From assembly GCF_000372725.1 (NCBI RefSeq), contig NW_005201092.1:117683-169345 (forward strand): DNA of 51,663 nt, given 5' to 3'. Origin of the DNA: Emiliania huxleyi CCMP1516. Taxonomy: Eukaryota. A model generated the notes under the pieces. The model ran no database searches. It saw only the letters and a program-made list of their open reading frames with translations, and was not told the DNA's origin. A program made the position numbers and the translations under genes. Positions 9,784 through 38,163 of this stretch are shown here, piece after piece. How positions within the stretch are numbered: the first letter of the stretch is position 1; the number at the start of each line of letters is the position of its first letter.

Positions 9784-11231
9784 ATGATGGAGCCACACAT
9801 TGTGTGTGTGACTTTGCTCCTCTCCGTCATCAGCGGGTGCGCCGCACACGGCGCCATCGTCAGCCCGCGCAGCCGCAATTCGATTGACTACCTCGCCGGC
9901 GTCCGCGGAATCGACCGCTGCTACAACTTTTCGGGACCGGCGTGCGAAAACGGGCAAGCGGCCCACTACTACTCGCAGGGCTGCACGATCGGCTGCCCGA
10001 CGTGCGACCACGTCAGCGGGCGCCAGCAGGTCGACCTGTGCGGCCTCGGCAAGTCGGCGACGCTGCCCGACTATGCGCGCAGCGTGAACCGGCAGGCGGC
10101 GGCGGGCTCGGACCTCGACATCTACAAGCACAACCCGTGGCGCGCCCCCGGCTCCGCGCCCGTCGCCGACGCGTGCGGGCTCGCTGGCGGCACGCCGTGG
10201 GGCGCCGACGCGCCCGAAGAGGGCAGGTACGTCGCGCCGCGCTTTTTCTGTTTTGTCGTGGGCATGGGGAATTCTTTTTTGTGTCTTCACAGGTACGTCA
10301 ACACGAGCTTTGCGCACCACGGCATGCGGGGCACGGCGCTGCGCGAGCTGGCGACGGGGGTTCGGTGGGTGATCGGCGGGGCGGCGGAGGTGACGTGGCA
10401 GGTTCGCAACAACCACGGAGGAGGGTACAGCTACCGGCTCTGCCCCGCGGGCGAGGCGCTCACCGAGGCCTGCTTCCAGCGCCACCCGCTCCCCTTCGAG
10501 CGCACCAAGCAGGCGTGCTCTTCTTAGACCGCTACGCTGGTCGCAGTTTTGGTAGTGGCAGCGGTAGTAGAAGCAGTAGGAGGAGGAGGGGGAGGAGGAG
10601 GAGGAGTGGAGGAGGTGTTGGTAGGAGTAGGAGTGAGAGGAGGAGGAGGAGAGTAGCAGCAGCTGCTGCTGCTGCTGCACGAGGAGGCGCAGTAGCAGCT
10701 GGCCAGACTGTGCCTTCACATTCTTTGCCCAGCTGGCTAGGCCCTCGTCGTCGCGAGCGGCCAGAAGGTGCCGATCCGAGGCCTCTTTGTCGACGAAGGC
10801 ACCCGAGATTACCCCCGAGATTACCCGAGATTACCCCCGAGATTACCCCCGAGATTACCCGCGGCCTCTTTGTCGACGAAGGCACCTCGCCTCCCGAGAT
10901 ACCCCCGAGATTACTCGAGATTCCCCCCGAGATTACCACAGATTACCACAGATTACCCCCGAGATTACCCCCGAGATTGCCCGAGATGACCCGAGATTGC
11001 CCGAGATTAGGCACCTCGCCTCCCGGCTCGACGTGGGCGCGGCTGCCTCTTCCAGCGGACATCCTCGGTCCGCGCTGCGCGTGCAGGCGTGCACCTCTGC
11101 TAGTCCTCGTGTGCTCACACCACCACACTGTGGGGGGGGAGATGCCCGAGCCATGTCCATGTCCATGTGCATGTGCATGTCCATGTCCATGTCCATGTCC
11201 ATGTCCATGTCCATGTCCATGTCCATGTCCA

Positions 11232-11262
<31 letters not shown>

Positions 11263-13257
11263 GTGCGTGTGCGTGTGCGTGTGTGGGATGGACGGTGCTG
11301 TCATACTGCGCGGGGCTTCCCGCGGGGGACCGAAGGCGTACCGACCCCCCCCCCCCCCTCCCCCCCAACCCCCCACACGTGCAGCCCCGGGTTAGACTAC
11401 AAGCCGCGCGACTTCGCCTGCGGCTGCCTAGCCGGCGAGCAGAGAATCGGCTGCACGTCGGCCGGCAGCTGCTCGCCTCGCGGCCTGCTTTTCTTCTTTC
11501 GTCGTGCGGACCGTGAATTCTTTTTTGAGTCGTTCACAGGTCTGTGAACGACACTGCTCGCTCGGCGCGCGTGCGCGCGTCTCCCCACATCTCCCCACCA
11601 TCTCCCCATATCTCCCACAGGTAACTGCTCCCTCGGCGCGTGCGGAATATCTCCCCACATCTCCCCACCATCTCCCCATATCTCCCACAGGTAACTGCTC
11701 CCTCGGCGCGTGCGCGCCCTGCCCCGGCTCCAAGGGGTCGGACTGCTCGCGCTGCGGCAACGGCCTCGCGCTGCTAGACGCGGAATATCTCCCCGTATCT
11801 CCCCCCATATCTCCCCATATCTCGTGAGCAGGAGCAGCGGGCCCTAGAAGCGGAATATCTCCCCGTATCTCCCCATATCTCCCCATATCTCGTGAGCGGG
11901 AGCAGCGGGCCCTAGAAGCGGAATATCTCCCCGTATCTCCCCATATCTCCCCATATCTCGTGAGCAGGAGCAGCAGGCCCTGGAAGCGGAATATCTCCCC
12001 ATATCTCCCCATATCTCCCCATATCTCGTGAGCAGGAGCAGCGGGCCCTGGAAGCGGAAAGACATAACGATGAGATCGCACGAGATATGGGGAGCCGTAT
12101 TCCGCTGTATTCACTGTACTCGCCTCCCTTGTCTTCACGCGGTGCTCTGAAGACGCTGCACGACACCGCCCTTCCCGCCCCGAGGCTGGTGTCTTCAGCA
12201 CGCAGGCCTTGGACCGGCATTCGAGCCGCCGTTCCACTACAGCGGGCAACCCGCCGGTACCGCCCCCACCAGCGCCGCCCCGACTCCGCACCCACCGCCG
12301 CCGACGCCCCCCCCCCCCTCCTCCCTCCTCCCTCCTCCTCCTCCTCCTCCTCCTCCTCCTCCTCCTCCTCCTCCGCTGCTGCTGCTGCTGCTGCTGCCTC
12401 ACCGCCACCACAGTCTACGATGTCGTGCGAGTGCCGGCGGGGCTCCGGCCCGGACGGGGCGTGCTCTGTGAACGGCGTCTATTCACACCTCCAGCCGTGA
12501 ACAGGCGGGGCTCCGGCCCGGACGGTACGTGCTCTGTGAACGGCGTCTATTCACACCTCCAGCTGTGAACAGGCGGGGCTCCGGCCTGGACGGTACGTGC
12601 TCTGTGAACGGCGTCTATTCACACCTCCAGCTGTGAACAGGCCGGGCTCCGGCCCGGACGGTACGTGCTAGGCTTCCGGTACGATTGCGAGGCGACTGCG
12701 CAGGTCTGGCCCACCCCATCTCTCCCCATCTCTCCTCGTCTCTCCCCATCTCTCCCCATCTCTCCCCGTCTCTCCCCATCTCTCCCCATCTCTCCCCATC
12801 TCTCCCCATCTCTCCCCATCTCTCCCCATCTCTCCCCATCTCTCCCCATCTCCCCCCCCCTCCCCCAACCCCCCTCCTCTTCCTGCGTGCGCACGCTCGG
12901 CCTCGCACTCTCTGCTCGCACTCTCTGCACGGCGTTGGGCTCCTCCCGGCGCTTCGCGCGTGGAGGTGCGAGGGGCAGAGTGGGGGCAGAGTGGCACGGA
13001 GAGCCCCCCATGCGCCCCACACTGGCGCGCGGAGGCGTGTGTCTGCATTACTGTGAACGGCGTCTATTCACACCTCCGGAGGCGTGTGTCTGCATTACTC
13101 GGTAGATGGCACGCCAGTCCTATCGTGGCCCGGGGCGCGTCCGTCCCTAGTGGGCCCTGGCAGGGAGGGGAGGGACGGACGAGCACACTCTCTGCCTTAG
13201 GTCTGGTCGTCGTGCAGCGACATCACGCTGGTGGAGGAGGGCGGCACCACCCGCACC
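9784..13257 (+). CDS. Secreted lytic polysaccharide monooxygenase-like (His-brace) protein, multi-exon
   Basis: Signal peptide followed by His1 (AA|HGAIVSPRSRN), then NPWRAPG, NHGGGYSYRLCP, YVLGFRYDCEATAQ|VWSSCSDI. Introns at 10227-10292, 10513-10740, 10799-11010, 11087-11384, 11465-11690, 12437-12640 and 12704-13200. Exon(s) between ~11760 and 12414 and the stop are unresolved. Confidence 0.8.
11153..11284. repeat. (TGTCCA)n/(TGCGTG)n intronic microsatellite
   Basis: Hexamer arrays read directly from the sequence. Confidence 0.9.
11780..12058. repeat. Tandem repeat of ~68 bp, 4 copies (ATCTCCCC filler + CGTGAGCAGGAGCAGCGGGCCCT)
   Basis: GCGGAATATCTCCCC...CTCGTGAGC units at ~11780, 11850, 11918 and 11986. 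Confidence 0.85.
12437..12640 (+). repeat. GC-AG intron made of three 68-nt units (29-nt exon duplicate + 39-nt insert)
   Basis: 204 nt = 3 x 68. Removing it restores VRVP|AGLRPGRYVLGFRYDCE. Confidence 0.85.
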
Positions 13258-13716: not shown

Positions 13717-14542
13717 CTACAGGCTAGGGAGCCCTGACCCCAGGCTGGGGGGGTGCGCGTTCGCAGGGAAAGGGCCGTAAAATAAACACGGGTCTCCAAG
13801 GGTTAGTACCGCGCTCCAGGTTTCCCCTAGCAGCAGAACGCCCCCTCTACTCGGAGCTATAGTAAACACCAGACAAGGACACGCGACGACACACTCCCCC
13901 TTGCTGGCGACGCGGCGTCGTCAGTCACAACCCCTCCGCCCGGCCTCCCTGCCCCGGCACCGGATGCTAGAGCTAGTGCTTGAGAAGACACCACAAACGC
14001 GGCACGGCCCGTTTTGGATGTCTGCGGAGATTCTGTCTTAGCATACACAGTGAATTCGATGGCCAGAGTGCGATTGTGTGTGTGCGGGAGTTGGTTTGTC
14101 GGGAGGGAGGGGCAGGCTGCTCACCCACGTGCACCGGGCCAGTACTTGCACTTTGAATGCCGTGGGGCTCCTGCCCGTGTCCGGGTGTGGAGATGCGAGG
14201 GTCGCCCCCCCTTGCCCCACCACTTTGTGTGTGTGGAGAAATTTACCTTACCTTACCTACCGGTTGGGTCCACCCCCCCCGCTCGGTCCGTTCTCCTGTT
14301 TGCTTCTTGATGGTTGTACGGCGGGCGCGGGGCCCGACCTCCCCACCCTCCTAGCCTTTTTCGGCTGCGGCCCCGCCGCCGTCTCGTCTTCTCTGCTTGA
14401 TCCTGTTGACTCCGCCTCCGGCGATCCCGCGCCCGACTCCCCGGGTGAGGGCGGCGGCATCATGTCTCGTCGCCACCCCTCTACGGGAGGTCGGGCCGGC
14501 TCTCCCTGGTCAGCGAGTCGCGCCCGCACCCGTGGCCTCTCT

Positions 14543-14692
14543 CGTGCGGGGAGAGCGGCATTGTGCACGGTGCGGAATGCATTGCCGTTCTTAACGGAGT
14601 CGCTTAGGCGGCTCCGGTGGTGAGCCGGTGTGTGTGCCAGTCCGCGCCAGTCCGCGCCCTTGTCGTGCCAGTGTGCTGTGAGAGAGGCTTGT
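14543..14692 (+). mobile_element. 150-bp 3'-end copy of the CRE-like element
   Basis: Near-identical to 16014-16163 (end of ORF plus 3' UTR). Confidence 0.85.
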
Positions 14693-14719
14693 TCTTGTTC
14701 CTTAAGAAAAATTCTTCTC

Positions 14720-16163
14720 CAGACGCCGTAGCGCGCTGCCATGGTGGCCGCTGCCTTGGGCAGTGGCCACGGTGGCCGACCCAGGGCTCCTACGCGGCTA
14801 CAGCCGCGCGCGACCGCTGCCGCTGGCACCGGTCGCGAGGACTCTGGCTCGGCATGCGCGCCACCGAGGTTCCGCTTCTATCCGCACGGGCTGACGCCGG
14901 CTGCGGAGCTGCTTCCCCTGGCCCAGTTCTCGTCCACCCACGAGTTCCTGCACCAGGCGCAGCGGCGGTACACCTCTGGTGTGCACCACGCTAACTGGCT
15001 CAACCTTGCCAAGGAGCTTACCGACGAGGCGCTTCGCAGTGGCGGCCGCAAGGCGCCCTCCAAAGGCAACAAGGTCGGAAGACGCAAGAACCACAAATGC
15101 TGGCGAGAGGCGATCCGTTTTGTCGCCGTCAGCCAACCAGGGGCCGGCGCCTTCCTCAACGCCATCCCCATGCGTGATGATATGAAGATGGAGTCCTGGG
15201 CGATGCGCGTCACCGTCCAGCGCCGCCTTGGGCTCCCCCTTGATGTCGCCTGCCAGGCGGTGGAGGCAGGCAAGAGGGCACCCAGCGGCCAGCTACACGA
15301 CGTCTTTGGCGACGCCGCGATGGTTAACCCTCGGTCAAAGCATGCTACAAGACACAAATTTCTACTCAAACGTTTGATCAAATGCCTCCGCTCGGCGTGG
15401 GGCATGATCATCGAGATGGAGCCGACTGCACACCTCAGTTACAGTAATCCAAAACAACCTGACGTGGCGGCGGCAAACATCGGCAGGGGGCACAGGCGCC
15501 TTGTTGCCGATTTGAAGCTCACGAGCTCGCTTGCGAGCCAGGGCAAGGACACGGCCGGCGACGGAGAGCTCGGCTGGAAGGGGGCCTATGTGCGTTTTGG
15601 CAACACGGAGACCGGGCTGCTCAAGTTGGTCAAAGGGCGCGGCAAGTGGTCTCCGTCGGGAGCGACGGCAGCGGCGGTGGCGGGGGAGGAGGAGGAGGCC
15701 GAGGAGGAGGGGGAGGAGGGGGAGGAGGAGGATGCCCCCAAGGGAAAGCTCAAGGAGCTGCCTGGCGATTACCCCTTTGCGCGGCAGCAGGATTGCGATC
15801 TACGTTTGTTTGATTTTGAGGCTTTCGGAGGCTTTGGAAAGGAGGTTCGCAGCACCCTGAGGGAGGCGGCGAACCAGCTGAGCAACAAACTTTCGCACGC
15901 TCAGCACCTGGACGAGGTCACATGGACCACCAAGAACTGGCACGGGCTGCAGATGCAGCGCTTGTCTGTCGTCCTCCACACCGCCGTGGCGTGGCAGACG
16001 GTGAACGAGCTAGCGTGCGGGGAGAGCGGCATTGTGCATGGTGCGGAGTGCATTGCCGTTCTTAACGGAGTCGCTTAGGCGGCTCCGGTGGTGAGCCTGT
16101 GTGTGTGCCAGTCCGCGCCAGTCCGCGCCCTTGTCGTGCCAGTGTGCTGTGAGAGAGGCTTGT
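14720..16163 (+). mobile_element. 5'-truncated CRE-clade non-LTR retrotransposon (C-terminal restriction-like endonuclease region, no RT)
   Basis: ORF 14741-16078 contains AFLNAIP...QRRLGLPL...DVFGD...RH...EP...QPD...ADLK...EAFGGFG...QRLSVVL, the post-RT/RLE pattern of CRE-type elements. Confidence 0.75.
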
Positions 16164-16251
16164 ATCTTAAGAATTCTTTGCGACAAGGGCAAGCCGCGGC
16201 ATGCGCGACAACGCCACACGCCCATTGGTGTGGGGCCGTCCTGCGTTAAAT

Positions 16252-22970: not shown

Positions 22971-23699
22971 ATCGGGATGTGATCTGTGATCTGTGAGGGT
23001 CCGCCCGCAGGCGCATTTTGTGTACCGAGGCGGTGCCCGGTGCCGAACCTGTCGGACCTTGAGACAGCATTGTAGATCCCCCTGGGCGAGGGTGGTGGCG
23101 TCCCCGTCGGGAGCACGGGAGGGGCTGTCTGGCGCGTGGCGGAGGCATGGTGAAAATTCTTTTTCGGCTCGTTATTTTCTTTTTCTCGCAGGAGTCGCCG
23201 TCGATCGTGCAAGACTTCCACCACGAACGATGTCCTCGCGACGGAGGACGCGCACCCACTGCGCGGCGGCGGAAGCCCCGGCGGGGACGACCTCGCCTGC
23301 CCCATTGGCACGATTCTCGACCCCAAGCAAGGGCGCGATGGGTCTCTCCCGCCCGGCGGCTTCATTCACAACCTCTGCCGCGGCGACGCGGGCTGGCGAA
23401 AGGCCCGACGTGGCCGTTTTACGTGCAGTCGGCGGTCCTGTCACTCTCGAAAGAAGAGTTTGGGGATGACCTCTCTGCGGACATCGCCATCGCCATCGAT
23501 CCGACGCTCAAGTTTGCTGAGTGTGTGAGTGAGTATTCTTATGATTGCACAAGCAACACGATGGCACTACTCAGCGTCGAGCCTTGTGATAGGGGCGGTG
23601 CTTGCCGTGTTAAAGTGCGGCTGATGGTGGAGGCGTCAGGAGTTATACTTCGACCCTGTCGACGGGACGCCACCACGCCCCAACAGCTTCAGCAGCAAC

Positions 23700-24170
23700 C
23701 GCCCGACTGGACGGCGTACACTGATGGGTCGGAAGACGGAGGCAGGGCAGGATGGGCGTACGCCGTAGTCATGGGCGGGGACGGCATATGCGACGTGAAT
23801 GCCATGCTCGTGACCGAAAGCTACGGCCCCGTCGTGACTAGCCCCGTACACGCCGCTTTCGTGGGGGCGCGGAAACACACCAATAACACGGCGGAGCTGT
23901 CAGCGCTTGCGGAGCTTTTTCGCTCACTACTCCACACGGCACCACGACCAGCAGGCTCACGAGGGGTGGTCCGAACGGACAGCGAGTACGCGATGGCGTG
24001 TGCGACGGGGAGAATCTCGCCGGGGGAGAACGCACAACTAGCGAGCTATCTTCGAGCAGCGTGGCGGCATTTAGCGTCGAGGCACGAAGTGACATGGAGA
24101 CACGTCAAGGGGCACAGTGGTCATAAGTGGAACGACTACGTCGATAAGCAAGCCGACCTCGGCAGGAGCG
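23700..24170 (+). mobile_element. Ribonuclease HI domain, probably retroelement-derived (within ORF 23147-24421)
   Basis: YTDGS...GA..HTNNTAEL...TDSEYA...HVKGHSGHKWNDYVDKQA supplies the DEDD residues plus His. Intronless; no RT or endonuclease nearby. Confidence 0.75.
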
Positions 24171-25488
24171 GCGCGAGGGATTGCGGCGCGCCGGAGTGGC
24201 AAGACGAATCTGTCCCAACAGACGCAGACGACGGGGAGAGCAGCACCGTGGGCGACGACGTGGTTATTAACGGAGGAGGTACATCAACCATCCCACTCGA
24301 CGACATCGGTGATGGGGCCTCTAGCTACGCCGATGACCCACCCGACTCCCCCGAAAACGAACCGCCGCCTAGCGCCCCGCCCTCGGGCCGCCTAAAGCCC
24401 CAGTCGTGGAGCAGGGGGTGATATGGATTTCATACACGCCGAGCGCGCAGGCGCGACACATCGGAGACAATAAGGGGATCCGGCGTGAAAGAGCTATCGA
24501 CATTGACGTTGACCCAGCCGATTCCACCGACGTCGACGCCATCACCTCCGCGGCTACCGCGCTTTTGCTCGACGACACCGTGGAGAATCGCACCGAGGAC
24601 CTTGCCGAGGCGATAGGCCGAATATCACTTTGGGCCCCGACTCCGCCCCCACCCCTCGGGGTGGGGGCACCCGCCCCTGTCGGGCACCGCTTGCGGCGCC
24701 TGGCAGGGGCACCCCCTGGGTGGGGGCCGGCGATTCCCATGCCGGCTCTCCGCCACAACCCCCGCCGGGAGGGAATCCCTGCTCACAGAAAAGGGCTTCG
24801 AGCCCTGCCTCGCGCACGCCCCTGGCGGGCGCTGCGGACCAGTTCCGCGAGCGCTCGTCAGCGGGTGGTGTGCGGTTCTTGCCGTAGTTCCTCTTCGGTC
24901 GCCTAGCCCCGGCGCCTTCTGTCGGACGCCTGCGTGTCACGAGTGCGAGCCGCTCGCGGTTCGTACGCCCGCTTGCGGGTTCGAGTGGCGGGCCATCCCG
25001 CTTGCGGGATGGCTTAGCGGGTTCGAGCCGTCACACATTGGCTGCCGGGGTGTGCCGAGGGGGGGCTGGGTGGGCGGTAAGCCGTCATTGCCCGACGCTG
25101 CTACCTTGCAGCGCTCTGGGTGGTAGTGGCGGCGCTCCAAGAGTGGTGCTCTTGGGAAGAGGTTCCTCCTTCCCCCCCCCCCCCCCCCGCAAGGCGCGAG
25201 ACACACATTCTTGATACGAAACCACGACCACACCAGTCGACTCGCATCGGTTGCCTCCATTAACGGCGGAGCTATTCTCGCGCCCACACCACACCTGGCT
25301 CCAACGTGGACACGCCCATAGCTGGGACACACACTCACTCAAGTTTGCTGGTACTCTCGGCGCCTTCACACAGCCACAGCGCCCGCCCCGCTCCGAAGCT
25401 CAAGTTTGCGAACGACTGTGCACGCTGTTTCCTGCACGCTGAGACGCTCTGGAGTCCTCTCGGTGCTCTCCATCTGAGAGGACCGTCC

Positions 25489-26044
25489 ATGCCGATCTGG
25501 GACTGGTTCAGGAAGGTCTCGGACGGCAAATCCGAGCGCCAATCCTCCGCCTCCGGCTGCACCGACGCCAGCTCCAGGCACAGCTCCAAGGACCCCTCCG
25601 AAAGGTACTCGAAGGCGAATGCCCATCCGCTGCCGGCCCCGGCGGCGGGCGGGCGGCAGGCGGTCGACGACTGGAGGTCGACGGGCGGCAGCGACGTGAC
25701 GAGCATGAGCAGCAGCTCCGACGCCAGCTCAGGCTTTGGGTCGCCAAAGAGCCACGGAGGCGCGGCGACGGAGCCGATGCGGCAAAGCCCGATCTCGGAG
25801 GGCGGCGGCGCCTCCTCCTCGACAGGCACCTCCCCCGCCGCCTCCGCCGTCTGCTACCGCCAGCCTGCGACGAGCGCCGCCCCTTCCGGCCCATTAGGCG
25901 TCGGCGGAGGCGGCGACGGCGGCTCTGGCACCGCGACGGGCGAGGACGCGACGGGGGCAGAGTACGCGCCAAACTACGGACGGGGAGGGCGCGCGTTCGG
26001 CGAGGCCGGCGCCGTCGGCCCGGCGGGCGGGTGCGCGGGCGAAT

Positions 26045-26075
<31 letters not shown>

Positions 26076-26098
26076 GTTGGCCAGTCAGCAACGGTCAT

Positions 26099-26141
<43 letters not shown>

Positions 26142-28563
26142 GGCTGCGGCAGAGAAGTCGCTCGGCGGCGGCGTGGGGGTGGGGAGGACGCCGGGCGAGG
26201 GGTGGAGCGCGAGGCCGACGGCGGCGGTGCGGGCCGGCGCCGACAGCGGGCGGGACGAGTCTCTGGCCTACCGCGTGGTGAGCGCGGTCGTGGGAGGCGT
26301 CCAGTTCGAGGTCGACGCTCGCTACACGATGCGCAACGTCGTCGGGAAGGGCGCATACGGTATCGTCGCCGCCGCCGACGACGCTCTCGGCGGCGGCGGC
26401 GGCGGCGGCGGCGGAGGAGGAGGAGGAGGAGGAGGAGGAGGAGGAGGAGGCGCTGCCGACGCCGAGCGCTGCAACGCGGGCTGCGTCGCGGTCGAGACGA
26501 TCTTCGAGCCGTTTGCGGACCGGACGGAGAGAAAAAGAAATACGGGCGTCGTTTCTGTCTTCAGGTCAAGAAGATCTTCGACCCGTTCGCGGACCGGACG
26601 GACGCCAAGCGGCTGCTGCGGGAGGTGCGGCTGCTGCGCGTGCTCCGCCACCCCAACGTCCTGCAGCTGCTCGACATGCTGCCCTCGCCGTCCCTCTCCT
26701 GCAGCAACTGGCGCGACGTCTACCTGGTGACGCGGCTGTACGACACCAACCTCCACCGCGTGATCTACAGCGGCCAGCCGCTCTCGGACGAGCACGTGCA
26801 GTACATCCTCTGGCAGGCGCAATCTCCCCCATATCTCCGCCATATCTCCCCATATCTCCGCCATATCTCCGCCATCTCTCACCATGTCTCCCCATATCTC
26901 CCGCCAGGCCTTCCGCGCGCTCCGCTACCTGCATGCCGCCGGCGTGGTGCACCGCGCCCTGACGCCAACCAAGGGAAGTGTCTAGGAAGTGTCTAGGAAG
27001 TGTCTAGGCGTGGTGCACCGCGACATGAAGCCAACCAACATCCTGCTCAACCGCGACTGCGAGCTCGCCCTCGCCGACCTCGGCCTCGCGCGCTACATTG
27101 GCGCCGCCGCTGCCTGCGGCGCCGCCCCGCCCTCCCGCCGCTCTTCGGACGGCAGCATGCAGCCACCGCCGGGCGGCACTGGCGCGGGGCTCGGCTCGCT
27201 GACCAAGTACGTGGTCACGCGCTGGTACCGCGCGCCCGAGCTGCTCGTCCAGAACCAGAGGTACGACGCGGCGGTCGACATGTGGTCGCTATTATTATGA
27301 TTATATATTATTATTATTATTGTTAGGTACGATGCGGCGGTCGACATGTGGTCGCTGGGCTGCATCGCCGCGGAGCTGCTCGGCACACGCGCGCTCTTCC
27401 CAGGCGAGGACTCGCTGCACCGCCTCACCCCCCGAGATTGGCCGAGATGACCCGAGATTGCCCGAGACTGCAGGCAAGGACTCGCTGCACCAGCTCAAGC
27501 TCATCATCGAGCGGCTCGGCGCGCCGTCCGCCGCCGAGCTCGCCCTCATCGAGAATGAGCAGGCCGTGCGCTACGTGGCGTCGCTGCGGCCTCGCGCAAC
27601 CGAGCCAGCGACCGCCGCCACCTACGGGTCCCCCGTCTTACCCAGCTGGCCGCCCGCCCGCAGGTGGAAGAAAGAAAAGAAAGCCCACCGTCTCCCGCTG
27701 GTAGGTCCCTCTTCCCGTTGGCGAACCCGCAGCTCCTCGACCTGATCCACCAGCTGCTCCAGTTCGACCCGCGCCGCCGCCCGACCGCCGCAGAGGCGCC
27801 GCGCCACCCGCACCTCCCCACATCTCGCCACACCTCCCCGCATCTCCCCACATCTCCTCCACATCTCCCCACATCTCCCCACATCTCCCCACACCCCCCC
27901 ACATATCTCCCCCCACCCCCCCACACCCCCCCACACCCCCCCACATCTCCCCACATCTCCTCCACATCTCCTGCCCATCTCCCCACATCCCCTCCACACC
28001 TCCCCACACCTCTCCACACCTCCCCACATCTCCCCACATCTCCCCGCAGGCGCTGCGCCACCCGTACCTCCCCACATCTCCCCACATCTCCTCCACATCT
28101 CCCCACATCTCCCCACATCTCCCCGCAGGCGCTGCGCCACCCGTACCTCCCCACACCTCCCCACATCTCCCCACATCTCCCCACATCTCCCCACATCTCC
28201 CCGCAGGCGCTGCGCCTCCCGTACCTCCCCACATCTCCCCACATCTCCCCACATCTCCCCGCAGGCGCTGCGCCACCCGTACCTCCCCACATCTCCCCAC
28301 ATCTCCCCACATCTCCCCGCAGGCGCTGCGCCACCCGTACCTCGCCGCGTACCGGGATGCGCCCGAGGAGGCGCTCGAAGTGCCCGTCATCGAGATGGAC
28401 TTTGAGGGGCGCGGCGCAAGCAAGGAGGAGCTGCGCGCCCTCGTCTGGCAAGAGATGCTGCGCGTGCGCCAGCCAGGCTTTACGAGGAGGTGTGAACAGC
28501 GTCTCTGCACACCCCACTGCTGTGAATAGGCGCGTGCGGCAGCCAGAGCGATTCGCGAGCTGA
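25489..28563 (+). CDS. Mitogen-activated protein kinase with a long disordered N-terminus
   Basis: [46 protein letters not shown] and ALRHPYL. Introns at 26491-26564, 26817-26907, 26942-27007, 27261-27326, 27404-27473, 27628-27704, 27796-28322 and 28460-28529 all restore the frame. Confidence 0.92.
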
Positions 28564-29882
28564 GCAGCGCGCCCGCCGCCCGCCCGCCCCACCTCAGCCG
28601 AGCCGGGATTGGCTGCGGCTGCGCGAGGCTTCGATGTGTCGCCGTCGAGGCTGCGGTGTTGCGCCGTGCGGCACCGCCGCAGCGGCAGATGCACGCAGTC
28701 ACCCGCACACGCACCCCCGCCCTGGCGGCACACGCAAACCGCCGTGTGGCAGGGGATGCTGTTTCGGGGGAGACCTGGAGCCGCGCGGCGGACGTGCGGC
28801 GACAATCTCCGCCTAGTACTCCATACAGAGAGGCCGTTGGAGAGAGATTTGGGGGGGGGGGGTTGGAGAGATTCTACACGCGCCGTGAAGCGAGATGAGG
28901 CCGCGTCTTGCGTGGGCAAGCAGAGAGATGGCAGATGGGATGCGTACGCTAAGCGTTCTTGGAGGGAAGGTCTCAAGCTTCAACTTCTCACTGTCTCGCC
29001 ATGAAAATTGCGTCACGCAGAAAACAAACGCAGTACGCAGATTCTGGTTTCTCTTTCTGCGCCCGGACTCTCTGCGAGAGCCCCGACGGGCCGAGACTGC
29101 GTCCGCCGGTCCGGTGTCCTGCCGTCTGCCGACGTGCGGGCGCCCCGTGTTCTCCGCCTCGACAGCACGAGCAACGTCCAACGAGATTGGCGACGAGAGA
29201 GGGGGCTGCGACGGAGCTCGGAGGAAAAAGGGGGCTGCCCCGAGAGCTTGAAGAGGACGGACATCAGTGATGACGAAACAGAAGCTAGCGCAGAAGAGAG
29301 CAGGGCAGACCCGGGGACTGGGGAGCCGGAGCGGACCCGAGGGAACGTTGGGAAGAGGCACGAGGAGGGCGGCGACCTCAACCGACTATGGAGGACACCC
29401 GTCACCAGTCGACGCAGAGCAGACGACGGTGAGGCGGAGCAGACGCGCAGGGCGAGACGAGGGAGGGAGCAGGATGTTGCGGAGATCAGCAGGAGGATGT
29501 ACGACGAGATTAGGAGCAGCAGGGACCCGAGGGACCATGTGGAAGACGGCTAGTGCTAGTCCCCCATCGGGAGGACGACCCCGGCTAGTCGCCGACCACA
29601 CCCACAAAGAACCCGGGTGTGTTCGATTGTAAAAAATCTGCCATAGGGCGCCCAGGGGCCGCCCCCGGCCGCCCGCGCGCACAAAAAAATACTCCTCCGC
29701 CCCGGACGCCCTCAGAAAACAACATACTAGCCCCACAAGCGTCACGAGTTTACGAGAGTACTCAAAATAAATTCCTGGAGTGCCCGGCCGCGCCGGCAGC
29801 AGGCCGCCGTACGCGTAAGGCTGGATAGGCCGCCGCGATGGCCGGCAGTCTCCCGTGCCTCTCGCAGGCATCCCTGTGTAGT

Positions 29883-35680: not shown

Positions 35681-36537
35681 GGGGGGGGGGAAGAACGGGG
35701 AAATGGGTGCCCCGGGACTCCCCTTTACCCACCAGACAGCCGCTCTTCTAGCCCGGTAACGCCTATTTCCCCAAGCTGANNNNNNNNNNNNNNNNNNNNN
35801 NNNNNNNNNNNNNNNNNNNNNNNNNNNNNNNNNNNNNNNNNNNNNNNNNNNNNNNNNNNNNNNNNNNNNNNNNNNNNNNNNNNNNNNNNNNNNNNNNNNN
35901 NNNNNNNNNNNNNNNNNNNNNNNNNNNNNNNNNNNNNNNNNNNNNNNNNNNNNNNNNNNNNNNNNNNNNNNNNNNNNNNNNNNNNNNNNNNNNNNNNNNN
36001 NNNNNNNNNNNNNNNNNNNNNNNNNNNNNNNNNNNNNNNNNNNNNNNNNNNNNNNNNNNNNNNNNNNNNNNNNNNNNNNNNNNNNNNNNNNNNNNNNNNN
36101 NNNNNNNNNNNNNNNNNNNNNNNNNNNNNNNNNNNNNNNNNNNNNNNNNNNNNNNNNNNNNNNNNNNNNNNNNNNNNNNNNNNNNNNNNNNNNNNNNNNN
36201 NNNNNNNNNNNNNNNNNNNNNNNNNNNNNNNNNNNNNNNNNNNNNNNNNNNNNNNNNNNNNNNNNNNNNNNNNNNNNNNNNNNNNNNNNNNNNNNNNNNN
36301 NNNNNNNNNNNNNNNNNNNNNNNNNNNNNNNNNNNNNNNNNNNNNNNNNNNNNNNNNNNNNNNNNNNNNNNNNNNNNNNNNNNNNNNNNNNNNNNNNNNN
36401 NNNNNNNNNNNNNNNNNNNNNNNNNNNNNNNNNNNNNNNNNNNNNNNNNNNNNNNNNNNNNNNNNNNNNNNNNNNNNNNNNNNNNNNNNNNNNNNNNNNN
36501 NNNNNNNNNNNNNNNNNNNNNNNNNNNNNNNNNNNNN

Positions 36538-36918
36538 TCGACTCGGACTGACCGACGGCTCTGCCGAGGGCACTGCCCAGGGCAGAGCCCGCCGCCGCGC
36601 CCGGGGCGGAAGAGGGTCGCGGCGAGATCGTGGGCGGGTGGGTGGGCGGTGGGGGAGGCCGGCGGAGGCGGCGGCGAGGTCGAGATGACTACGTGGTAGT
36701 GCCTGATTTGGTTCCCGCGAGCAGGTCGCTTGTGGCACGCACGCACGGCCCTTGGCTGAAGAAGGAAGGGCACCCTTTTCGCCAGCCCGACGAGCACTGC
36801 TCCGAGCAGCTCGCCTTTCGTGGGGTGGGCGGACTGCCAGAGACTTTTTGACTGCCGCGGTGGCGGTCGTGCCGGTGGATCGTGGAAGTACCTCTCTGGA
36901 AGTCCCCCCGCCGCCGGG
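36538..36918 (+). repeat. Dispersed repeat B, uninterrupted (empty-site) copy
   Basis: Colinear with 45013-45218 + 47752-47782 + 48613-48735. Confidence 0.9.
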
Positions 36919-38163
36919 GGCAGTGTATTCTATATAGGCTGTAGAGCGGTCCCGACTCCCGAGGTCCCGCGTCTTTAGTGCATAGTGGGGGAAATGGTCC
37001 ATGATTCATTTTCCAAGCCCCAAAACCCAAGGACGGAAACCCCTCGAGGCGTTTGTGAGAGGCGTTTTCGTTCGGCGTCTACGGCTTTATGATGACGGTG
37101 ACAACCGCGGGTAGACCGCTCCTCGAGCGTCGAGGCATGGAAGCGATGGATATTTGCACTTCTCGGGGGCCTCAGCCCTCAGGGCCCGGACTGCTTGGCC
37201 CTGGCGATGGAGCTGCAGCCGGGCGCGCCGGACGCCGCCGCCGCGGCGGGGGCATCCAACTTTCCAAAGGACTCCAAAAGTCGGAAAAGTTGGACGGATG
37301 GCATCATGATGTGGCGTTTGTGTACAGTTTGAGAGGGTCTTTCACATTCACACGTCCGCGGTCATCAGCCAGCGCAAACATGAGAGGGATCGCACGCGCG
37401 CCAGCAGCAGCCCGGGGGGAGGGCGCGCTCTCTCTCTGCCTCTGCGCAGAGCTCTGGGCAAGTGCGTGTGAGGCGCGCAGAGCGCGCGTCCGTTGCACGG
37501 TCCGACTAGGGCACCAATCGGCGCCGAACGCGCGCGCCAGAGCGGGTTGGGGTCGCTCGGTACATGCCCTGGCGCGTGCCAGGACGGCTGCCGAGGGCCT
37601 GCGGCAGGGGGCGAGGGTGAGCTTCAAGGACCAGAAAGGACCTCACCGCCTGGGGGGATCTGCTCTGGGGTGACAGGGGATGGTTGGGTATGTGTGGCTA
37701 CGTGTACCATTGTGTACCACTGGAGATCTGGAACCCTTCTCGGGCCCTCTCGAGCTCTGGCGCAGCGCTGCGCTGCAGGCTGTGCGAGTGGTGTGACGGC
37801 GCGCCTCTCGGTGGTTGGGCGGAGGTCGTGCCGTTGGAGGCCCGGAGCCGCGGCGGCGAGTCGCGCATATTCGTCGCCGGCGCGCGCGCCGGCTGTGAAC
37901 AAACGTAGTCGAGAGGGGGACGCACGCACGCGCCCCTTGAACGAGGCTCGGCCGTCCCACAGACTTGACGAGGCGAGACTCGCCTCTCGGGTTGACTCGG
38001 CCAGACAAAAACCCCGAGAGGCGTGGGAGTACCTCGCCAGCCCATGTCTCTCTGTGTGCAGGTGTGCTCGCCGCAGCCTCCACAAACGTTGGCAACGGAT
38101 TCCGGTCGTGCACCCATCGACGGCGAGGCGCAAAACTCCGGCCAGCACGCCGCGCACGCACCA

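What the first reader, a model, noticed from the sequence alone, without database searches (positions are those of the whole stretch)
12437..12640. One ~40-nt filler supplies the acceptor in introns of two unrelated genes
Seen: the LPMO intron has three copies of CTGTGAACGGCGTCTATTCACACCTCCAGC[C/T]GTGAACAG, each after a 29-nt exon duplicate. MAPK intron 28460-28529 ends in GTGTGAACAGCGTCTCTGCACACCCCACTGCTGTGAATAG after a 17-nt exon duplicate. The insert has a GTGAA...TTCAC mini-hairpin. Inference: this filler is a dispersed, templated mini-element rather than a local slippage product, i.e. a very small introner with long TSDs.
Basis: partly seen in the sequence, partly recalled or inferred. 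Interest (0 to 1): 0.85.

Follow-up and report, generated by a model that had tools for sequence, protein, structure and literature searches.

The report
Copied splice acceptors build algal introns
In a marine alga, many short introns consist of a roughly 30-base copy of the next exon's start followed by a 39-base splice-acceptor piece shared by over a hundred unrelated genes, likely because DNA-break repair copies that piece from other introns, which would be a route to mass intron gain that needs no conventional transposon.

Summary
The three 68-nt units at 12437-12640 and the MAPK copy are there (5 matches, 0.00 expected), and RNA contigs splice out both introns at GC..AG. A partial metagenome scan returned 123 loci (about 400 estimated). 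87 of 107 distinct sites carry a duplicate of the downstream exon start. Units measure 68.9 +/- 3.3 nt, and donors are GC, GT or GA with no further consensus.

The piece is not a closed element. Five pairs of unrelated loci also share 10-30 nt upstream of it (0.33 expected), often derived from the partner's exon. One gene holds an antisense copy of the LPMO array. A truncated copy sits inside an intron. A 178-bp satellite contains the core. Unrelated fillers build the same 65-75-nt units.

Best reading (0.55): staggered-break repair duplicates about 30 nt and copies the insert from another intron; selection keeps the spliceable products. DNA versus RNA template is open. No empty-site allele was seen.

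Introner families of unknown mechanism are already tabulated for Emiliania huxleyi, the likely host (inferred). The long duplication and copy-to-copy carry-over were not found in 10 paper searches or in earlier findings of this scan.

The parts
12437..12640 (+). LPMO-like gene intron, GC..AG, 204 nt = three 68-nt units
   Evidence: RNA joint in X11 and X12; exons joined in a script give the protein P0001 across this point
12437..12465 (+). Exon duplicate 1 (29 nt, 3 mismatches); supplies the GC donor
12466..12504 (+). Filler copy 1 (39 nt, 10-nt direct terminal repeats, ends in AG)
12505..12572 (+). Unit 2: exon duplicate 12505-12533 + filler 12534-12572
12573..12640 (+). Unit 3: exon duplicate 12573-12601 + filler 12602-12640, whose AG is the acceptor used
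12641..12703 (+). Exon whose first 29 nt are the duplicated sequence
13030..13099 (+). Fourth, 3'-truncated filler copy (13053-13076) between 23-nt direct repeats (13030-13052, 13077-13099); 47-nt unit inside intron 12704-13200, not at a splice site; same rare core variant as the array
28460..28529 (+). MAPK intron, GC..AG, 70 nt: 17-nt exon duplicate, 13-nt spacer, 40-nt filler (28490-28529)
   Evidence: RNA joint in X11 and X14; present in DNA contig of X9
9787..13245 (+). Host gene 1: LPMO-like protein, 10 exons (stop codon not mapped)
   Evidence: Pfam LPMO_10 E 0.00083, below the curated cut-off
25489..28565 (+). Host gene 2: MAPK-like kinase, 9 exons
11465..11690 (+). LPMO intron of three stacked units with different fillers; the most diverged exon copy is at the 5' end
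26491..28322 (+). Other MAPK introns with exon duplicates of 24-38 nt and other fillers: 26491-26564, 26942-27007, 27261-27326, 27404-27473, 27796-28322
   Evidence: 26491-26564 has no RNA joint listed

Best explanation
Each intron is a roughly 30-nt copy of the downstream exon's start (giving a GC, GT or GA donor) followed by a shared 38-39-nt piece ending in the AG acceptor, and it likely arises when repair of a staggered DNA break duplicates the overhang and inserts sequence copied from another intron. SHOWN: the anatomy, splicing at two window introns, dispersal, frame restoration, sharing of upstream sequence between unrelated loci, antisense and truncated copies. INFERRED: (1) nicks about 30 nt apart on opposite strands are filled in, giving the duplication; (2) the left end anneals by a few bases to an existing intron, nearby or distant, DNA or RNA, and copies the filler plus a variable part of that intron's own exon duplicate; (3) selection keeps products that begin G|GC, G|GT or G|GA, end in AG and total 60-78 nt; (4) every new intron becomes a template, and the quasi-palindromic filler can give splice sites on either strand, so the family snowballs; (5) unequal exchange between the duplicates gives arrays such as the three-unit LPMO intron.
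For: 94 of 116 usable copies have an upstream duplicate scoring >=10, against 0.3% of shuffled pairs. At the 87 of 107 distinct sites with one, the unit is 68.9 +/- 3.3 nt, lengths mod 3 are 30/28/29, and 76 of 87 have G before the donor. Among 145 distinct 5' parts, 5 cross-locus pairs score >=10 for shared sequence before the filler (null 0.33) and 4 score >=12 (null 0.03). Their fillers differ at 0, 0, 1, 2 and 5 of 38 positions against a median of 5. In L113/L029, L078/L088 and L026/L034 the shared part is the partner's exon-derived duplicate. L036 and L062 share a near-identical whole 68-nt intron in unrelated genes, each in frame. L020 holds 82 nt, 92.7% like the LPMO array including its exon copy, antisense, as a GT..AG in-frame intron of a PCIF1-domain gene. 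Neighbouring sites share variants: mean distance 1.44 versus 2.60 at 6 variable positions, 16 loci, P 0.0001. The intronic copy at 13053 has a 23-nt repeat, a 47-nt unit and no AG end. Unrelated fillers make the same 60-79-nt units (63 of 138 other short direct-repeat units). Opposite-strand nicks are known to yield small tandem duplications (PMC8355091, passages) and ectopic or nearby templated inserts (PMC7407515, passages).
Against: No empty-site allele was seen in the 4 non-RNA runs laid on two genes, so ongoing insertion is not shown. The whole genome was not available. The scan demanded an exact core, so 5'-truncated copies and true homogeneity are under-sampled. Only one unselected (intronic) copy has a short unit, so 'length set by selection' rests on n=1. 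Duplicate identity falls from about 0.94 over the first 16 nt to about 0.55 by +28 while the total length stays fixed, which in-register overwriting explains equally well. Similarity between target and partner exon starts is weak (P 0.04-0.13). L034 could be an assembly chimera and L091/L082 may be chance. Splicing of the metagenome loci was not tested with RNA. No enzyme was identified.
Confidence: 0.55

Rival explanations
1. Target-primed reverse transcription: a non-LTR reverse transcriptase copies excised or debranched intron RNA from its AG end into a staggered cut, giving a fixed 3' end, a 5'-truncated body joined by microhomology and a long target duplication.
For: 122 of 138 copies end in the AG motif, and core-to-AG is 38 nt in 79 of 87. 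Most are sense: 65 of 80 by a codon model. Partial 5' carry-over from a partner looks like 5' truncation. The filler is present in RNA contigs. An RNase H domain ORF lies in the window.
Against: L020 starts and ends inside the filler and is antisense. The copy at 13053 stops before the AG. Seven copies read by eye as introns of the opposite strand. Neighbours share variants, which points to local copying. No poly(A) tail. Fixed 3' end and sense bias also follow from selection. A likely branch point 20 nt from the AG (inferred from the yUnAy consensus) would stop copying of a lariat tail early.
Confidence: 0.2
2. Two steps: a whole 68-nt intron is inserted without duplication (reverse splicing or capture), then spliced mRNA or cDNA overwrites its 5' part in register with the next exon's start, to a variable extent.
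For: Identity falls away from the donor while total length stays fixed. Whole foreign introns without a local duplicate exist (L036, L034, L020). L091 and L082 both measure 78 nt. Old introns keep only 4-10 nt of match.
Against: The intronic copy at 13030-13099 duplicates non-exonic DNA. Two of three partial pairs are out of register (L078/L088, L113/L029). Near-universal overwriting of non-homologous sequence would be needed (87 of 107 sites).
Confidence: 0.13
3. One master source: the 178-bp satellite that contains the filler is the main template, and copies do not beget copies.
For: L009 and L103 are a 178/356-bp satellite whose A monomer holds the core and most of the 3' repeat, with no exon duplicate.
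Against: The satellite lacks the terminal AG. There are 100 distinct 38-mers in 143 copies. Pairs share exon-derived flanks. The direction satellite-to-intron is not shown.
Confidence: 0.07
4. A non-autonomous DNA transposon (MITE-type introner) with a cognate transposase.
For: [quoted passage not shown]
Against: The ends are direct, not inverted, repeats. The duplication is about 30 nt and variable, not 3-9 bp. Boundaries are not fixed.
Confidence: 0.03
5. Local slippage or convergent snap-back synthesis at each site.
For: A local fold-back at 11520-11555 makes the same terminal word from an acceptor (z -3.94). Arrays of 2-3 units exist at 13 of 146 sites.
Against: A non-periodic 23-nt core at 123 loci cannot arise independently.
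Confidence: 0.02

Closest known systems
Emiliania huxleyi CCMP1516 introner families in Gozashti et al. 2022 (PMC9860276, Suppl. Tables 5-6) and 2025 (PMC12130899, dataset sd07); supplement rows and main-text passages seen
   Same: 2022: 653 elements in 5 families, mean length 70 or 37 nt, GT/GC donors. 2025: fam24, 5 members, about 70 nt, '10bp terminal direct repeats', 'co-opt 5' carry 3'', class Unknown. This may be the same family.
   Different: TSD is listed as '?' or 'N' (2022) or 2 nt (2025). No 30-nt duplication, carry-over, antisense use or satellite link is noted in the rows seen, and the main texts do not contain 'Emiliania'. Two filler motifs were not found in the supplements (the 2022 file was cut when stored), so identity is unproven.
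TSD-co-opting introners (Symbiodinium microadriaticum type, PMC9860276 Fig. 2B legend; Aureococcus and Micromonas MITE introners, recalled)
   Same: Carry the acceptor, take the donor from the duplicated target and splice out precisely.
   Different: Those have TIRs and 3-9-bp TSDs. Here the duplication is nearly half the intron and the ends are open.
Tandem duplications and templated insertions from staggered-break repair (PMC8355091, PMC7407515; passages)
   Same: Duplication + filler + duplication; microhomology joins; nearby and ectopic templates.
   Different: Known as scattered mutations, not as a self-amplifying intron family. The enzymes were not tested here.
Intron gain by tandem genomic duplication (Hellsten et al. 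2011, PMC3265369; abstract only)
   Same: Duplicated exon sequence becomes the intron and supplies a splice site.
   Different: There the duplicated segment alone forms the intron, a rare event. Here the acceptor is imported and the event is repeated at many loci.
Hypoxylaceae internally symmetrical sister introns (PMC8469720; passages)
   Same: Symmetric or palindromic intron sequences that proliferate to new positions.
   Different: Long terminal inverted repeats, tens of copies; no long target duplication in the passages seen.

Membership tests
Introner (broad sense) | Similar intron sequences at many non-homologous positions | tested here: met
   107 distinct sites among 116 usable copies; 123 loci from 20 of 64 parts of the collection
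Introner (broad sense) | Spliced out precisely | tested here: met
   RNA joints for both window introns; phase agrees after removal in 26 of 27 confidently coding sites, 8 of 27 if left in, 60 of 80 overall
Introner (broad sense) | Similarity extends end to end of the intron | tested here: not met
   Only the 3' 38-39 nt are shared; the 5' 30 nt are locus-specific, except a few pairs
Introner (broad sense) | Recent gain: presence/absence polymorphism or absence in relatives | tested here: inconclusive
   No joined form in 4 non-RNA runs at two genes; a 79%-identical full-length protein on a 16-kb contig hints at an intronless orthologue, DNA not seen
MITE / TIR DNA transposon | Terminal inverted repeats | tested here: not met
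   The ends are 10-nt direct repeats; fold not significant
MITE / TIR DNA transposon | Short fixed TSD (3-9 bp) | tested here: not met
   Donor-to-core 30.6 +/- 2.7 nt at 33 full-length sites; variable
SINE / non-LTR retroposon | Variable-length TSD, fixed 3' end, 5' truncation | tested here: inconclusive
   Met by most copies, broken by L020 and 13053-13076; confounded by selection
SINE / non-LTR retroposon | Poly(A) or simple-repeat tail, or tRNA/7SL/5S-derived head | tested here: not met
   None in the position table; no Rfam match
SINE / non-LTR retroposon | Partner autonomous element with the same 3' end | not testable with these tools
   No genome held
Break-repair templated insertion with tandem duplication | Insert copied from nearby or ectopic sequence, with microhomology joins and open ends | tested here: met
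Break-repair templated insertion with tandem duplication | Dependence on Pol theta or NHEJ fill-in | not testable with these tools
   Needs genetics

The most novel reading that the evidence does not exclude
This lineage builds most of its introns by a transposase-free cycle. One nucleosome linker (about 30 bp; the satellite period of 178 minus 147 is 31) is duplicated at a staggered break, any existing acceptor is copied in as filler, and a spliceosome with almost no donor consensus picks the donor by distance. Intron ends then behave as selfish templates that spread genome-wide, with a 178-bp satellite as one reservoir.
Probability: 0.3. Interest if true: 0.9.

Novelty: new variant of a known kind. 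Interest (0 to 1): 0.72.

Why it matters
The source of new spliceosomal introns is a long-standing question; introner surveys leave about 72% of elements unclassified (PMC12130899, passage). This family leaves readable footprints: the duplicate dates each event against its own exon, and carried-over flanks link parent to daughter. Repair-based and RNA-based intron gain therefore become directly testable with existing strain genomes. It would also explain the excess of GC donors in E. huxleyi (about 55%, PMC7779022, passage): the donor is whatever exon sequence was duplicated. Gene predictors could use the duplicate as a splice-site marker.

Tried and rejected
A whole-genome search was not possible (no genome held), and the contigs behind five loci were not held, so copy number and empty sites in one genome remain open. 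The core had 0 matches in viral contigs and 0 in prokaryote genomes. No Rfam match was found for the filler region, the window or the satellite. A functional hairpin was rejected. A reverse-transcriptase template-switch artefact for the RNA joints was rejected: several joints have only 2-6 letters fitting both sides and fall at G[CT]..AG. Summed contig depth over the filler was about 300-640 times the unique exons, but the tool states this is no copy number, so it is not used. Homology-guided targeting was not established (P 0.04-0.13). A hotspot at existing acceptors was not claimed: 6 of 87 sites follow a different filler's acceptor (by eye), about what site frequencies would give. No nucleosome periodicity was seen in 52 inter-unit distances. 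The automatic sense/antisense classifier (80 sense, 10 anti, 29 neither, 28 no duplicate) misplaces boundaries, so antisense cases were read by eye (7 clear, 3 ambiguous, 1 neither, of 11). One search included two same-array pairs and was replaced. Ten paper searches found no description of this anatomy; the E. huxleyi genome paper did not come up in them, and bioRxiv supplements were closed. Four look-ups in earlier findings found no report of this family.

Full report
OBSERVATION. The window shows three head-to-tail 68-nt units at 12437-12640, each a 29-nt copy of the start of exon 12641-12703 plus the 39-nt filler. The MAPK intron 28460-28529 has a 17-nt exon copy, a 13-nt spacer and a 40-nt variant. 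A degenerate 23-nt core covering both variants matches 5 places, 0.00 expected. The fifth, 13053-13076, is new: 3'-truncated, between 23-nt direct repeats, inside the next intron. The claimed hairpin folds no better than shuffles.

SPLICING. RNA contigs of runs X11 and X12 (one study) join 12256 to 12640 with the microexon between, which removes 12437-12640 as GC..AG; all 9 LPMO introns are skipped. X11 and X14 (two studies) skip 28460-28529 and six other MAPK introns, while a DNA contig of X9 runs through it. No listed joint shows the joined form in the 4 non-RNA runs. The joined exons give a protein matching P0001 apart from a few substitutions. Of 17 introns in the two genes, 11 have GC donors and 7 carry exon duplicates of 17-38 nt.

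HOST. No call names it. Named homologues include Prymnesium parvum. GC donors fit E. huxleyi (PMC7779022 passage), and 10-11-nt intron repeats fit it too (recalled). I infer Emiliania/Gephyrocapsa huxleyi, and assume the metagenome loci come from it or close kin.

DISPERSAL. The scan returned 123 loci from 20 of 64 parts, about 400 estimated, with 138 exact copies; viruses and prokaryotes gave 0. 122 of 138 end in the acceptor motif. 116 had enough flank (22 dropped); 94 of these have an upstream duplicate scoring >=10, against 0.3% of shuffled pairs. After removing repeats of the same site, 87 of 107 remain with a duplicate: unit 68.9 +/- 3.3 nt (59-78), no bias to multiples of three, donors GC 42, GT 28, GA 9, other 8, G before the donor in 76, and no consensus beyond +2. 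A codon model trained on the two window genes puts 65 of 80 testable sites in the sense orientation; phase agrees after removal in 26 of 27 clearly coding sites (8 of 27 if left in) and 60 of 80 overall. Twenty further sites lie in 99 kb of flank. With 3 sites in this window, that suggests thousands per genome (inference; local clustering inflates it).

NOT A CLOSED ELEMENT. Identity between duplicate and exon is about 0.94 for 16 nt and decays to about 0.55 at +28, while donor-to-core stays near 31 nt. The remainder is sometimes traceable. Of 145 distinct 5' parts, 5 cross-locus pairs score >=10 for shared sequence before the filler (null 0.33) and 4 score >=12 (null 0.03); four of the five also share the filler variant (0, 0, 1, 2 differences; the fifth 5; median 5). 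In L113/L029 and L078/L088 the shared stretch is the end of one partner's exon duplicate, joined to the other's duplicate through a few shared bases. L036 and L062 carry a near-identical whole intron in a coiled-coil gene and a Rad16-like gene (my reading of the translation), each in frame. L034 carries L026's unit but could be a chimera. L020 holds 82 nt that are 92.7% like the window's array, from mid-filler through the LPMO exon copy to mid-filler, antisense, as an in-frame 80-nt GT..AG intron in a PCIF1_WW gene (E 1e-11). Seven of 11 inspected copies read as introns of the opposite strand. Neighbouring sites share variants more than distant ones (1.44 versus 2.60; 16 loci; P 0.0001). L009 and L103 are a 178-bp satellite (356-bp dimer) whose A monomer contains the core and most of the 3' repeat, without duplicate or terminal AG. 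Unrelated fillers, AT-rich, 10-11-nt repeats or unique, form the same units: 63 of 138 other short direct-repeat units fall at 60-79 nt, and intron 11465-11690 stacks three different ones.

MECHANISM. I favour staggered-break repair with templated insertion (0.55). Opposite-strand nicks give small tandem duplications (PMC8355091 passages), and repair inserts come from nearby or ectopic donors (PMC7407515 passages). The insert here is an existing intron end. Selection for splicing would explain the G|G[CTA] start, the AG end, the sense bias and the length; the one clearly unselected copy (13030-13099, 47 nt, no AG) breaks all of these, but it is a single case. Target-primed reverse transcription (0.2) fits the majority but not L020 or the truncated copy. 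Whole-intron insertion followed by mRNA-templated overwriting (0.13) fits the polarity and fixed length but not the duplicated intronic DNA. Whether the template is DNA or RNA is open, and no empty site was seen, so present activity is not shown. The 30.6 +/- 2.7 nt duplication (33 sites) equals 178 minus 147; E. huxleyi has periodic linker methylation (PMC9246332 passage). The linker link is a conjecture, and inter-unit distances showed no periodicity.

KNOWN. The main texts of Gozashti 2022 and 2025 do not contain 'Emiliania', but their supplements list E. huxleyi introners: 653 elements in 5 families of 70 or 37 nt with TSD '?' or 'N', and a 5-member family of about 70 nt with 10-bp terminal direct repeats, co-opting the 5' site, class Unknown. 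That may be this family; its sequence was not found in the files. So an introner-like family in this alga is known. The long duplication, parent-to-daughter carry-over, two-strand use and satellite link were not found in 10 searches or 4 look-ups in earlier findings. It works like an introner. It fails the end-to-end similarity, TIR, short-TSD and SINE-tail tests.

VERDICT. Real, spliced and widespread; a new variant of intron-generating repeats with a testable, probably transposase-free mechanism. Interest 0.72.

Noticed in passing
L009:293-967 and L103: 178-bp satellite with alternating A/B monomers (66% alike; 356-bp dimer 89%) that contains the filler core; possible reservoir or derivative.
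   Followed up: partly
L020:600-681: Antisense copy of the LPMO array forms an in-frame GT..AG intron in a PCIF1_WW gene; not RNA-tested.
   Followed up: yes
window 11520-11555: Perfect 10-bp fold-back across an internal acceptor (z -3.94); it creates the filler's terminal word locally, a possible origin of the family.
   Followed up: partly
window 26974-27008: An 11-nt triple-repeat filler draws very many contigs in RNA and DNA runs; likely a larger family with the same anatomy.
   Followed up: no
window 10240-10292 and 11484-11540: Two LPMO intron ends share a T-rich filler, another family.
   Followed up: no
window 12437-12640 and 27796-28322: Multi-unit introns regenerate a donor after each internal AG, so unit-by-unit (recursive) splicing is possible; untested.
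   Followed up: no
window 28459: The MAPK filler intron is the only one of 17 with T, not G, before the donor.
   Followed up: no
window 12414-12436: 23-nt microexon supported by RNA contigs.
   Followed up: yes
window 14540-16165: 448-aa open frame (14732-16078) without a Pfam match, between long direct repeats seen by eye; probable mobile-element remnant.
   Followed up: partly
window 23063-24421: Open frame with an RNase H domain (E 1.5e-13); probable retroelement remnant.
   Followed up: partly
window 14113-14261: Dispersed repeat of about 145 nt, 72-78% like stretches in L002, L046, L055 and L084; no Rfam match.
   Followed up: no
window 36001-37000: GC drops to 31% beside an N run in a window of about 65% GC; foreign or organellar insert or contamination.
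   Followed up: no
P0002: 79%-identical full-length LPMO-like protein on a 16-kb contig, a hint of an intronless orthologue; DNA not seen.
   Followed up: partly
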